Assembly: GCF_988243305.1 (NCBI RefSeq)
Contig: NZ_OZ547137.1
From: a plasmid
DNA length: 64,000 nt
Direction: 5' to 3' (one strand)
Below, piece by piece: positions 30,901-33,900 of the stretch (positions are counted from its first letter, which is position 1; every line of letters begins with the position of its first letter). Position numbers: made by a program.

Positions 30901-33900
30901 TGGGGACCACGCCGGTGATCATGCCATTAGTAAATGAACCAAAGTATTTGCCGGTACCTGGCCAGAAGGTATGCAGTACCGCCCCCAGAAACAGGGGGAC
31001 CAGCATCATTCCTCCCGGAATTTTTTCAACTGTTTTTTTGATATTCATTATCGTCCCTTTTTAATGTCAGATACGGCCAGTCAGAGCACCATGATGGCTT
31101 CAATTTCAATAACAGCCCCCTGCGGCAGGGCGGCGATACCCAACGTAGCCCTGGCGGGGTACGGTGTCGAAAAGTATTCCGACATAATGGCGTTAAATCG
31201 CGGGAACATGTTCACGTCGGTCAGATAGGCATTCAGCTTCACAATATCCCTATCACTCCCTCCTGCGGCCTCTGCCACCGACAGCAAATTTTTAAACGCC
31301 TGACGGGCCTGTTCATCGAAATCTGTTGAGACCACTTGCATGGTATGCGGGTCAAAACCGACCTGACCGGCGAGATAAATGGTTTCCCCGGCTTTCACCG
31401 CCTGAGATAATGCCCCACCGGGGGCAGGAGCCCCGGTGGTATAAATGATGTCTTTTTTCATGATGTGCCTCCTGTCCTTTTGCGGTTACAGACCGAACAA
31501 TTTGTCTAGGCAGTCTGCCTGGTCGGCTGTTAACTGGCCGTTATGATTCCGTGAGACCGGCGTCATGTAGCCATACTTTCTGGAAATGGCGGTTTTGATC
31601 GTACTGACAAAATCATCACCAATGGCATATATCCCGGAAAGTCGCCCAATTTCTTTGTGTAATCCGGCGACTTCATTGAGGTCGCCGGCCCGATAGGCCC
31701 GCATAATTTGGGCAAAAAGCTCCGGCACCACATTATTCAGTCCGGAAAGAACTCCGGCGCCTCCGTTCATCAGATTGGGTACAAAGTACTCATCAAAACC
31801 GGCGAATACGGCAAAATCTTTTCTCAGCGGTGTGACCGCGTTGACGATGGCCCGGGTGTGAGACGCACAGTCCACAGTATCTTTGATGCCAATAAACCGC
31901 GGGCAGCTTTCCGCCAGCATTCTGACAAGGTGAGCATCCACATCACATCCGGTTCTGGCCGGGAAGTTATAGATAAACCAGTCACCGGCAAGTTTACGGT
32001 CAAGACTGCGGAAATAGCTAAGTAACTGACGGGATGTCTGGGCGTAGTAATACTGTGGCAGTACCATTACTGCGTCATAGCCACTGTCATAGGCGGCATC
32101 AGCCAGATAAAGCATGTCCTCTTCAACGGTAGATGAAATATGGGCAATCAAAGGGAGGTCACTCATTTTCCGGGCTTCCAGGATGAGCATTGCCCGTTCG
32201 CGGACGCTCATTGTGGCAAATTCCCCGATGGTACCTGATAGCAGAATGCCGTTGATGCCGGAATCAGAAAGGCGTGCCATATGTTTTTCCAGCCCCGTGA
32301 GGTCTATCTGACCGCTGTCATCCAGAGGAATGACGGAAGGGCAGACTGCCCCTGAAAACTTCATTGTCTGATTCATATTATTTGTTCCTTTTGCGTGGTA
32401 TCAGCGTCATGCCTGCTGATACCCGCCCCGGCCTTTACGGAAGAAGGATGGATATCAGTAGTCCAAACACCAATATAGTGATTTAGTAATCACTATATTG
32501 GTGTTTGGACTGACTGGGAAATCATCTTTATAAGAACTGTGCGTGAGTTCAAGAATTCATTCGTGTCGTTCCGGTGAACTCATATTGACAGGTCAATTGG
32601 CAACTGCGTCAGGTTACCAAGGGAAGCGGTTGAGCGTCTTTATAGCGACGATCGGCACGCAAGGTCATCATAAATGCCAGGGCGGATGCTCTGCCGGATG
32701 GCGTTAGCAGGACATTTTTTTCAGCCAAGCGCGCTGCTGCGGCCATTGCGACGCCTGCATCAGCGGCAACCAGATCAACTGTCTGGAAGGCTCGGTGCCG
32801 ACCATTCTCAACCGCGGCGGCTTCGCCAATAAGCTGCGTGCCGACTGGCAGTGGGTGATCGGCATCGGCGGCCTCGGCCATATCGCCATTAAGCTGCTGC
32901 GGGCGATGGGCGCCGATCGCGTAGTCAATAGCCGCGATCCTGAAGCCTTAAAAGTGCTGGCCGGGCAGTTTGACCTGAGCATCAACACCGTGGCGGTGGA
33001 TCTTGACTGGCAGCCGTACTTCGAAGCCCTGTCCTAGGGCGGCAACTTCCACACCGTCGACGCGGTGATGAAGCCGTTCCCGGTACCGGCCTTTACCCTT
33101 ATCGGCGACGACTGCAGCATCTCCGGCTCGGCGATCGGTAACCCATCCGAACTGCGCACGCTGAGGAAGTTCGCCGGACGCAGCAAAGTGGCTCCGACCA
33201 CCGAGCTGTTCCCGATGTCGCAAATTAACGAAGCGTTGAAACACGTTCGCGAAGGCAAAGCCCGCTACCGCGCGGTGCTGAAAGCCGACTTATGATGGTT
33301 CTCCTCCACCGGGCGGCCCGCTCGCCCGGCGTTTTCCCCGTTGCTTCATCAAACCATCGTTTCCCCGTCATGCCTCTGTAATCATAGCTTCCCACAATTA
33401 GGGCTTCGATAAATGGCTGAACGAGATGTGCGTAACCATGAGAAAGACCTGGCTTCCCTGGCTGATCCTGTCGCCTTCCCTGCTGTTTTTACTGCTGTTT
33501 ACCTGGTTTCCGCTGGGGCGTTCGGTGTATGACAGCCTGTTTGATACCCGCATGGCCAACGCGCAATACGTCGGGCTGGATAACTTTGCCCGCCTGTTTG
33601 CCGATAACGTCTTCTGGCAGTCGCTGGGCAATAACCTACTCTATATCCTGCTGACGGTGATGCCCGGGGTGACGCTCGCCCTGCTGCTGGCGGTCGCCCT
33701 GAGCGAGAACCATCGCGTCAACCGTTGGCTGCGCACCGCCTTCTTCTTCCCGATGATTATCCCGATGGTCAGCGCCGCTGCACTGTGGCTGTTTATCTTT
33801 ATGCCCGGCCTCGGCCTGCTCGACCACTATCTGGCAAAGCTGTTCGGGCCGATGAACAACAACTGGCTGGGGCGCAGCAACAGCGCGCTGCTGGCCCTGG

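What the first reader, a model, noticed from the sequence alone, without database searches (positions are those of the whole stretch)
32456..32516. Perfect 23-bp-arm palindrome upstream of the DapA-family gene
The palindrome gtccaaacaccaatatagtgatt-tagt-aatcactatattggtgtttggac has no mismatch over 23 bp, which is unusual for random sequence. It has no T-tract after it, so it is not a standard intrinsic terminator. It lies at the boundary between the IclR/KdgT/RidA/DapA-like cluster and the GC-rich ADH remnant. It could be a regulator binding site or the scar of a small palindromic mobile element marking a recombination boundary.
Basis: seen in the sequence. Interest (0 to 1): 0.4.

Follow-up and report, generated by a model that had tools for sequence, protein, structure and literature searches.

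The report
Palindromic operator of a plasmid sugar-acid operon
The perfect 52-bp palindrome is most likely the repressor-binding site (two adjacent boxes for the neighbouring IclR-family regulator) sitting on the promoter of the dapA-like/ridA/kdgT operon. It is not a mobile-element scar, so it is an ordinary kind of feature, though its two arms have visibly been kept identical during recent plasmid evolution.

Summary
The arms are 24 nt (32460-32483 / 32488-32511), 100% complementary, with loop TAGT. It is the only perfect inverted repeat in the window, and no shuffle produced one.

The window is an E. coli IncF (ST131-type) plasmid. About 190 E. coli records carry this locus and none carries another copy of the palindrome.

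Orthologous dapA-like clusters (DapA 58-85% identical) in metagenome contigs, Gilliamella, Zophobihabitans and Orbus hold an imperfect dyad in the matching upstream region: ACAnCAnTATAtTGA-N8-TCAaTATAnTGnTGT. The site appears only in loci that have the orthologous IclR regulator. Each half contains a mini-palindrome (CAnTATAnTG). The two centres are 20 bp apart, the spacing typical of tetrameric IclR regulators. The distal box supplies a -10-like TATAnT, and a CRP-like site sits at a conserved distance upstream.

Best reading: an IclR operator overlapping the promoter of dapA-ridA-kdgT. The "regulator site" idea is supported. The "mobile scar at a recombination boundary" idea is not.

The unusual part is the perfection. 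Among near-identical plasmids the only differences in 2 kb are two mirror-image substitutions. A single-arm intermediate survives, and the loop is flipped in two plasmids. This fits hairpin-templated (quasipalindrome) correction.

It is a new member of a known kind, of modest interest.

The parts
32460..32511 (.). Perfect palindrome: 24-nt arms plus loop TAGT (32484-32487). This is the whole proposed operator.
   Evidence: DNA hairpin dG -25.8 kcal/mol, z -13
32490..32504 (-). Distal box (read on the minus strand: ACACCAATATAGTGA). It contains the mini-palindrome CAATATAGTG.
   Evidence: The PWM pair score is 44.6 against 11.9 for the next best site in 64 kb. The box is conserved in 13 orthologous loci.
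32467..32481 (-). Proximal box (plus strand ACACCAATATAGTGA; read on the minus strand TCACTATATTGGTGT). Its centre is 20 bp from the distal box centre.
   Evidence: the spacing matches tandem IclR boxes (PMC8222616)
32492..32497 (-). Predicted -10 hexamer TATAGT of the dapA-ridA-kdgT promoter, inside the distal box.
   Evidence: Consensus scan. TATAnT is near-invariant at this position in orthologs, several of which have good -35 elements 16-18 bp upstream. Inference; no TSS data.
32515..32520 (-). Weak -35-like hexamer TTCCCA, 17 bp upstream of the -10.
   Evidence: inference
32538..32553 (-). CRP-like site CTTGAACTCACGCACA, 40 nt upstream of the -10 (centre about -60.5).
   Evidence: Conserved block TGAaCTnACgCACA in the close orthologs. 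It is the best CRP-consensus match at conserved spacing in all 13 loci. The window's own copy is weak (7/10).
32462..32462 (.). Polymorphic arm position: T here, C in most plasmids. It mirrors 32509.
32509..32509 (.). Polymorphic arm position: A here, G in most plasmids. It mirrors 32462. A alone is present in plasmid pE300444_144.
31486..32376 (-). DapA/NAL-family aldolase gene, first gene of the regulated operon.
31081..31461 (-). RidA-family gene, second gene of the operon.
30083..31048 (-). kdgT (2-keto-3-deoxygluconate transporter), third gene of the operon.
   Evidence: TIGR00793, 494.7 bits, above cutoff
29285..30037 (+). IclR-family regulator gene, convergent with the operon. It is the proposed binder of the palindrome.

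Best explanation
The palindrome is the operator of the dapA-like/ridA/kdgT operon. It consists of two 10-bp mini-palindromic boxes (CAnTATAnTG with conserved flanks, ACAnCAnTATAtTGA) arranged as an inverted pair, with centres 20 bp (two helical turns) apart. A tetramer (dimer of dimers) of the IclR-family regulator encoded at 29285-30037 is proposed to bind both boxes. The distal box contains the promoter's -10 hexamer (TATAGT), and the proximal box covers the start of the transcript, so binding would repress transcription until a sugar-acid effector releases the protein. A CRP-like site centred near -60 would supply catabolite-dependent activation.

Shown:
- the dyad is conserved across taxa;
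- it is found only in loci that have the regulator;
- the box spacing is 20 bp;
- it is unique in the window.

Inferred:
- the identity of the binding protein;
- the transcription start;
- repression, and the CRP dependence.

The unusual 24/24 perfection of the plasmid copy is best explained by a mutational process. Hairpin-templated (quasipalindrome) correction keeps the arms identical and occasionally flips the loop. It need not reflect a requirement of the protein.
For: 1. Orthologous position. The four distinct close metagenome relatives (DapA 79-85% identical; six contigs, L007-L013) and eight Orbaceae genomes carry a 15-8-15 dyad in the matching region upstream of dapA (in Orbus, upstream of the first gene of a longer operon that ends in dapA). 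It is the top-scoring site of each whole locus.
2. Co-occurrence. An IclR ortholog (56-88% identity) flanks dapA in L007-L026 only. The 67 loci without it score below 8 and instead show KdgR-box-like sequences.
3. Possible autoregulation. Gilliamella loci with a divergent iclR have a second, weaker site next to the iclR start.
4. Invariant positions are those of a protein-contact motif (A1 C2 A3 C5 A6 T8 A9 T10 A11 T13 G14 A15). Arm-to-arm pairing is only 10-22 of 24 in orthologs.
5. Box centres are 20 bp apart. IclR-family regulators commonly use tandem palindromes 18-22 bp apart, consistent with tetramers (PMC8222616).
6. TATAnT in the distal box has -35-like elements 16-18 bp upstream in several orthologs. 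A CRP-like site sits at conserved spacing (40 nt in four loci, 42 in one) despite unconserved intervening sequence.
7. Only one such site exists in the 64-kb window (44.6 against 11.9 for the next best).
8. Arm dynamics. The window and p266917_2_01 differ in 2,090 bp only at the mirror positions 32462 and 32509. pE300444_144 has just one of the two changes. The loop is inverted in two plasmids. A diverged metagenome variant (L106) has the other single-arm state.
Against: There is no binding, TSS or expression data.

The co-occurrence of motif and regulator is confounded with phylogeny, because loci lacking both are the more distant DapA homologs.

Three loci with the IclR ortholog (Budvicia, Limnobaculum, an Enterobacteriaceae MAG) lack the canonical dyad and show only a diverged variant.

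The window's CRP-like site is weak: 7/10, matched by 31% of shuffles.

The plasmid palindrome extends 7 bp per side beyond the conserved core. Arms also covary above shuffles at a non-conserved position (covariation 0.254 against 0.169, 0/500). A pure protein-site model does not predict this.

No site was found upstream of the plasmid's own iclR.
Confidence: 0.72

Rival explanations
1. The palindrome is a structural DNA or RNA hairpin or cruciform whose base pairing itself is the selected function. Examples would be a supercoiling-sensitive cruciform at the -10, or a 5'-UTR stem, with protein binding secondary or absent.
For: The stem is very stable (DNA -25.8 kcal/mol, z -13; RNA fold z -7.9). 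Mirror-image double substitutions restore pairing. Arm covariation across orthologs exceeds shuffles. G. intestini also has 22/24 pairing.
Against: Pairing is poorly conserved in several orthologs: L010 has 10/24 with dG -2.7 and z +0.5, and L013 has z -1.55. Meanwhile specific bases are invariant in both boxes. If the -10 is the distal TATAGT, transcription starts near the loop, so the mRNA would hold only one arm (inference). There is no Rfam family above threshold, only miRNA-like hairpin noise.
Confidence: 0.12
2. The palindrome is a remnant or solo copy of a small palindromic mobile element (MITE-like, or abutted IS ends) marking the recombination junction of the plasmid mosaic.
For: The region is a mosaic: a pglZ fragment, a Zn-ADH pseudogene and IS remnants lie nearby. 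Perfect long inverted repeats are typical of MITEs.
Against: There is no second copy in the window or in 5,426 E. coli genomes beyond this locus. All 10 metagenome hits are the same locus. Flanks show no direct duplication. A homologous imperfect dyad occupies the matching upstream region in chromosomes of other genera. The native CRP-like block lies beyond it, so the junction is more than 40 bp further out.
Confidence: 0.03
3. The palindrome is the operator of a different regulator, not the adjacent IclR protein. Candidates would be a host hexuronate or KDG regulator such as ExuR/UxuR or KdgR, or another global factor.
For: The TATA-centred palindrome loosely recalls other sugar-acid operators (from memory, not tested). 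The regulator was assigned only by co-occurrence.
Against: Homologous operons lacking the IclR ortholog lack the dyad and carry KdgR-box-like sites instead. The 20-bp tandem-box geometry fits the IclR family. A second site sits next to the divergent iclR in Gilliamella.
Confidence: 0.1

Closest known systems
Tandem palindromic operators of tetrameric IclR-family regulators (e.g. the TtgV-ttgGHI operator, structure 2XRO; comparative survey PMC8222616)
   Same: It has two palindromic boxes on the same face of the helix with centres 20 bp apart. It lies in the promoter of the operon next to the regulator gene. The overall footprint-sized element is about 40-50 bp.
   Different: The box sequence (CAnTATAnTG with ACAC/GA flanks) matches no characterised IclR regulator that I could identify. 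The protein is below every NCBIfam equivalog cutoff. Here the two boxes are exact inverted copies, giving a perfect 52-bp palindrome. Binding is untested.
KdgR boxes of enterobacterial KDG/pectin regulons (kdgT, kdgK, eda)
   Same: It is an IclR-family repressor logic controlling a kdgT-containing sugar-acid operon. KdgR is the second-best NCBIfam match.
   Different: The score of 144 is far below the KdgR cutoff of 275. The KdgR-box-like sequence AAAACAnnGTTTCATTTT occurs upstream of DapA homologs that lack this IclR ortholog, not here.
Quasipalindrome-associated template-switch mutation hotspots in E. coli (e.g. PMC7202029)
   Same: It is an inverted repeat able to form a hairpin. The observed series runs perfect, then one-arm change, then a mirror change restoring perfection. 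Loop inversion is also seen.
   Different: It is seen here in natural plasmid lineages rather than in a reporter. The direction and mechanism are inferred from a handful of sequences. Compensatory selection is not excluded.
Class I CRP-dependent promoters (lac-type, site centred near -61.5)
   Same: A TGA-N6-CACA-type site is centred near -60.5 relative to the predicted start. The -35 is weak. The spacing is conserved in orthologs, and is two turns further upstream in Gilliamella and Orbus.
   Different: The window's site matches only 7 of 10 consensus positions. No TSS or CRP dependence has been shown.

Membership tests
IclR-family tandem-box operator | Palindromic boxes recognised by HTH dimers | tested here: met
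   Each 15-mer holds the 10-bp palindrome CAnTATAnTG. There are 12 near-invariant positions over 24 half-sites.
IclR-family tandem-box operator | Two boxes 18-22 bp apart centre to centre (tetramer geometry) | tested here: met
   The spacer is a fixed 8 bp in all 13 loci, giving 20 bp between box centres. The criterion comes from PMC8222616.
IclR-family tandem-box operator | Located in the promoter region of an operon linked to the regulator gene, and conserved with it | tested here: met
   It is the top site of each locus, 18-102 bp upstream of the dapA ATG in 12 loci; in Orbus it lies upstream of the first gene of a longer operon, 3 kb from dapA. An IclR ortholog is present in every locus with the dyad and absent from the 67 loci without it.
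IclR-family tandem-box operator | Direct, effector-sensitive binding by the IclR protein | not testable with these tools
   This needs EMSA or footprinting with WP_001403368.1.
MITE / IS-derived palindromic element | Multiple dispersed copies | tested here: not met
   There is one copy in the window. Only this locus is found in 190 of 5,426 E. coli genomes. All 10 metagenome hits are the same locus.
MITE / IS-derived palindromic element | Target-site duplication flanking the element | tested here: not met
   The flanks are ...atatcagt / gactggga..., with no direct repeat.
Rho-independent terminator | G+C-rich stem followed by a T/U tract | tested here: not met
   The stem is AT-rich, there is no T run on either strand, and the scan found 0 sites.
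Known structured RNA family (Rfam 15) | Score at or above the gathering threshold | tested here: not met
   Only miRNA-precursor models match at 18-36 bits, against thresholds of 54-100.
Quasipalindrome template-switch hotspot | Inverted repeat capable of an intrastrand hairpin | tested here: met
   dG is -25.8 kcal/mol and 0 of 200 shuffles fold as well.
Quasipalindrome template-switch hotspot | Mutations that make the arms more perfectly complementary, templated by the opposite arm | tested here: inconclusive
   The series is majority C..G, pE300444_144 C..A, then window and Nord58 T..A. These mirror sites are the only differences between the window and p266917_2_01 in 2,090 bp. The pattern fits, but compensatory selection would give the same result.
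Quasipalindrome template-switch hotspot | Dependence on replication and exonuclease (xonA, sbcCD) background | not testable with these tools
   This needs genetics.

The most novel reading that the evidence does not exclude
The operator is a self-homogenising palindrome. Hairpin-templated conversion continually copies one arm onto the other and flips the loop. This has driven an ancestrally imperfect IclR dyad to a perfect 52-bp palindrome that can extrude as a cruciform exactly over the -10 element. The promoter would then have a supercoiling-dependent on/off layer in addition to repressor control.
Probability: 0.12. Interest if true: 0.5.

Novelty: new member of a known kind. Interest (0 to 1): 0.3.

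Why it matters
It assigns a concrete regulatory architecture to an uncharacterised metabolic cargo operon: CRP-like site, promoter, tandem-box operator and IclR-family repressor. About 190 sequenced E. coli IncF plasmids carry this operon, including ST131-type plasmids. It also gives a testable DNA motif for an IclR orthologous group shared with bee-gut Orbaceae. The plasmid population additionally shows, in nature, a palindrome losing perfect symmetry and regaining it, with a surviving intermediate. That is a small, clean illustration of quasipalindrome dynamics, and a caution that 'perfect' palindromes can reflect mutational homogenisation rather than function.

Tried and rejected
- **Mobile-element scar.** Searched the arm in the window, the intergenic region in E. 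coli genomes and plasmids, and the dyad in metagenomes. Only this locus was found.
- **Terminator.** The scan was negative.
- **Known RNA.** Rfam gave only hairpin noise.
- **First metagenome pattern.** The CRP block plus the -10, excluding the plasmid allele, found nothing, although it matches the local loci.
- **Donor search.** Looked for a closer donor with 85-99% identity. None was found. The nearest DapA relative is 85% identical, on a 3.7-kb contig.
- **Second site upstream of the plasmid iclR.** None was found.
- **Literature.** A search for this gene cluster returned nothing.
- **Plasmid of strain 35 (CP172870).** It looked like a further variant, but it contains an N and scattered errors, so it was disregarded as assembly noise.
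- **Not attempted.** Structure prediction of the regulator, because it could not show DNA specificity.

Full report
**1. Observation**

The sequence at 32460-32511 is AGTCCAAACACCAATATAGTGATT-TAGT-AATCACTATATTGGTGTTTGGACT. The arms are 24 nt (one more than reported) and 100% complementary, with a 4-nt loop. A search for the arm with up to 3 mismatches finds only the two arms in 64 kb, and none in 100 shuffles. It is the only perfect short-spacer inverted repeat in the window. No T-tract follows on either strand, and the terminator scan is empty.

**2. Context**

The window matches E. coli IncF plasmids of the ST131 type at 99.6-100%. The RefSeq annotation of an identical plasmid gives these features:

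| Feature | Coordinates | Strand |
|---|---|---|
| iclR | 29285-30037 | + |
| kdgT | 30083-31048 | - |
| ridA | 31081-31461 | - |
| DapA-family gene | 31486-32376 | - |
| Unannotated 256-bp gap holding the palindrome | 32377-32632 | |
| 110-bp fragment, about 94% identical to chromosomal BREX pglZ | about 32633-32742 | |
| Zn-dehydrogenase pseudogene | 32729-33295 | + |
| ABC transporter operon | from 33426 | + |

The palindrome is therefore 83 nt upstream of the first gene of a three-gene minus-strand operon. The 244-bp intergenic segment occurs in 191 E. coli records, always at this locus. The apparent 'two places per record' are the palindrome matching itself on both strands.

**3. Orthologous loci**

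The closest non-identical DapA homologs (79-85% identity) lie on metagenome contigs with the same dapA-(ridA)-kdgT plus convergent iclR arrangement. Their upstream regions share little sequence with the plasmid except two blocks. One is TGAaCTnACgCACA. The other, exactly 40 nt downstream (42 in one locus), is an imperfect inverted repeat homologous to the palindrome.

A scan of 100,044 species genomes with a DapA alignment returned 80 loci. A PWM pair scan finds the same 15-8-15 dyad, ACAnCAnTATAtTGA-N8-TCAaTATAnTGnTGT. It is the best site of the entire locus in Zophobihabitans, six Gilliamella genomes and Orbus (in Orbus, 3 kb upstream of dapA, ahead of the first gene of a longer operon). The spacer is always 8 bp.

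tblastn shows that an ortholog of the plasmid IclR protein (56-88% identity) flanks dapA in L007-L026 only. The 67 loci without it have no dyad (scores below 8), and several show KdgR-box-like sequences instead. In four Gilliamella genomes (L018, L020, L024, L025), where iclR is divergent, a second, weaker site lies beside the iclR start. In the window the palindrome is the only site (44.6 against 11.9 for the runner-up).

**4. Anatomy and mechanism**

Each 15-mer contains the 10-bp palindrome CAnTATAnTG. The two centres are 20 bp apart. A comparative survey of the IclR family reports that many members use tandem palindromes 18-22 bp apart, consistent with tetramer binding on one face of the helix (PMC8222616).

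The regulator is a bona fide IclR-family protein (PDB 1mkm, E 1e-36). It falls below every NCBIfam equivalog cutoff (BhcR 160 against 350, KdgR 144 against 275), so it is uncharacterised.

On the dapA strand the distal box contains TATAGT, with TTCCCA 17 bp upstream. Orthologs keep TATAnT at that position, and several have good -35 hexamers such as TTGACT or TTGAGT.

The conserved upstream block is the best match to the CRP consensus in all 13 loci. It is centred near -60 in the enteric-like clade and Zophobihabitans, and near -80 to -83 in Gilliamella and Orbus, about two turns further. The window's own copy is weak, at 7 of 10 consensus positions.

I therefore read the element as a repressor operator covering the -10 and the transcript start of a CRP-assisted promoter. 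The identity of the binder, the TSS, and repression are inferences.

**5. Why perfect?**

Orthologous dyads are imperfect, with 10-22 of 24 arm positions complementary. Predicted DNA hairpin energies are -2.7 to -18.2 kcal/mol, against -25.8 here. The protein does not need perfection.

The plasmid population shows what happens to the arms. The 190 E. coli records break down as follows:

| Variant | Records |
|---|---|
| Exact majority allele AGCCC...GGGCT | 162 |
| Flank SNP outside the palindrome | about 20 (estimate) |
| Inverted loop (TAGT to ACTA): p140_MLI109 and pJBEHAAB-19-0176_1 | 2 |
| Single-arm state AGCCC...GGACT: pE300444_144 | 1 |
| Window type AGTCC...GGACT: the window's plasmid and pNORD58_1 | 2 |

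Over 2,090 aligned bases the window and p266917_2_01 differ only at 32462 and 32509, the two mirror positions. By chance this is roughly 1/2,089 x 1/3, about 2e-4.

A diverged metagenome variant (L106) has the opposite single-arm state and a different loop. Across orthologs the arms covary more than column shuffles allow (0.254 against 0.169 +/- 0.022, 0/500), mainly at the non-conserved 'n' of the boxes. Relatedness can inflate this measure.

These patterns are what quasipalindrome template-switch mutagenesis produces (PMC7202029). Compensatory selection on a hairpin or cruciform is the alternative and cannot be excluded.

**6. Rivals**

- **Mobile-element scar.** There are no other copies, no target duplication, and the position is orthologous in other genera. 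The native CRP-like block lies beyond the palindrome, so the mosaic junction is somewhere in about 32576-32632.
- **RNA element.** With the predicted start near the loop, only one arm would be transcribed. Rfam gives only sub-threshold miRNA-like hits, as any long hairpin would.
- **Terminator.** There is no U-tract.
- **A different regulator.** This remains possible but is disfavoured by co-occurrence and geometry.

**7. Verdict**

This is a new, uncharacterised member of a well-known kind: a tandem-box IclR operator on a CRP-type promoter. It comes with a neat natural example of palindrome self-correction. Interest is modest.

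Noticed in passing
window 32633-32742: A 110-bp fragment about 94% identical to the chromosomal BREX-1 pglZ gene is wedged between the dapA regulatory region and the Zn-dehydrogenase pseudogene. RefSeq annotates it only as a frameshifted partial hypothetical protein.
   Followed up: partly
window ~32740-32820 (Zn-ADH pseudogene): Many sister plasmids (e.g. pJJ1886_5, CP024831, CP090075) lack about 78 bp here. The sequence diverges after GCGCGCTGC, which looks like a deletion between short repeats.
   Followed up: no
window 32397-32423: A second, small inverted repeat (GGTATCAGC, 9-nt loop, GCTGATACC) sits in the predicted 5' UTR just upstream of the RBS (AGGAA, 32385-32389 on the minus strand). 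Close orthologs have unrelated small hairpins in the same place.
   Followed up: no
L106 (OEQT01003601.1) 760-1177: In a diverged metagenome variant of the plasmid locus, dapA is cut off two codons after its ATG by an IS3-family transposase remnant and an IS1 end, while the operator and promoter are retained.
   Followed up: partly
L095 (pNORD58_1) and H21 (NZ_OP594535.1): The dapA-family gene is frameshifted in pNORD58_1, and the locus is interrupted by ISKpn26 in another plasmid. This suggests the operon is dispensable in E. coli hosts.
   Followed up: no
L015, L016, L017 (Budvicia, Enterobacteriaceae MAG, Limnobaculum), about 100 bp upstream of dapA: These loci have the IclR ortholog upstream in the same orientation. 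Two of them (L015, L016) carry a different dyad (ACTCnnAnATACAAGAT...CCATATA...GAGT, 9-bp spacer) instead of the canonical motif; no dyad was found in L017. This may be a diverged operator variant.
   Followed up: no
L031, L038, L075, L078, L079 (Erwinia, Mixta, Pantoea), 40-75 bp upstream of dapA homologs: DapA homologs lacking the IclR neighbour carry sequences like AAAACAnnGTTTCATTTT, resembling the classical KdgR box. Related aldolase genes therefore sit under a different IclR-family regulator.
   Followed up: no
window 32513: About 20 of 190 plasmids carry A>G just outside the palindrome (GGGCTGGCTGG). This marks a sublineage that includes a chromosomally integrated copy in strain 131.
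   Followed up: partly
window 11783-11818: An AT-rich imperfect palindrome (24-nt overlapping arms, 88% complementary) lies elsewhere on the plasmid.
   Followed up: no
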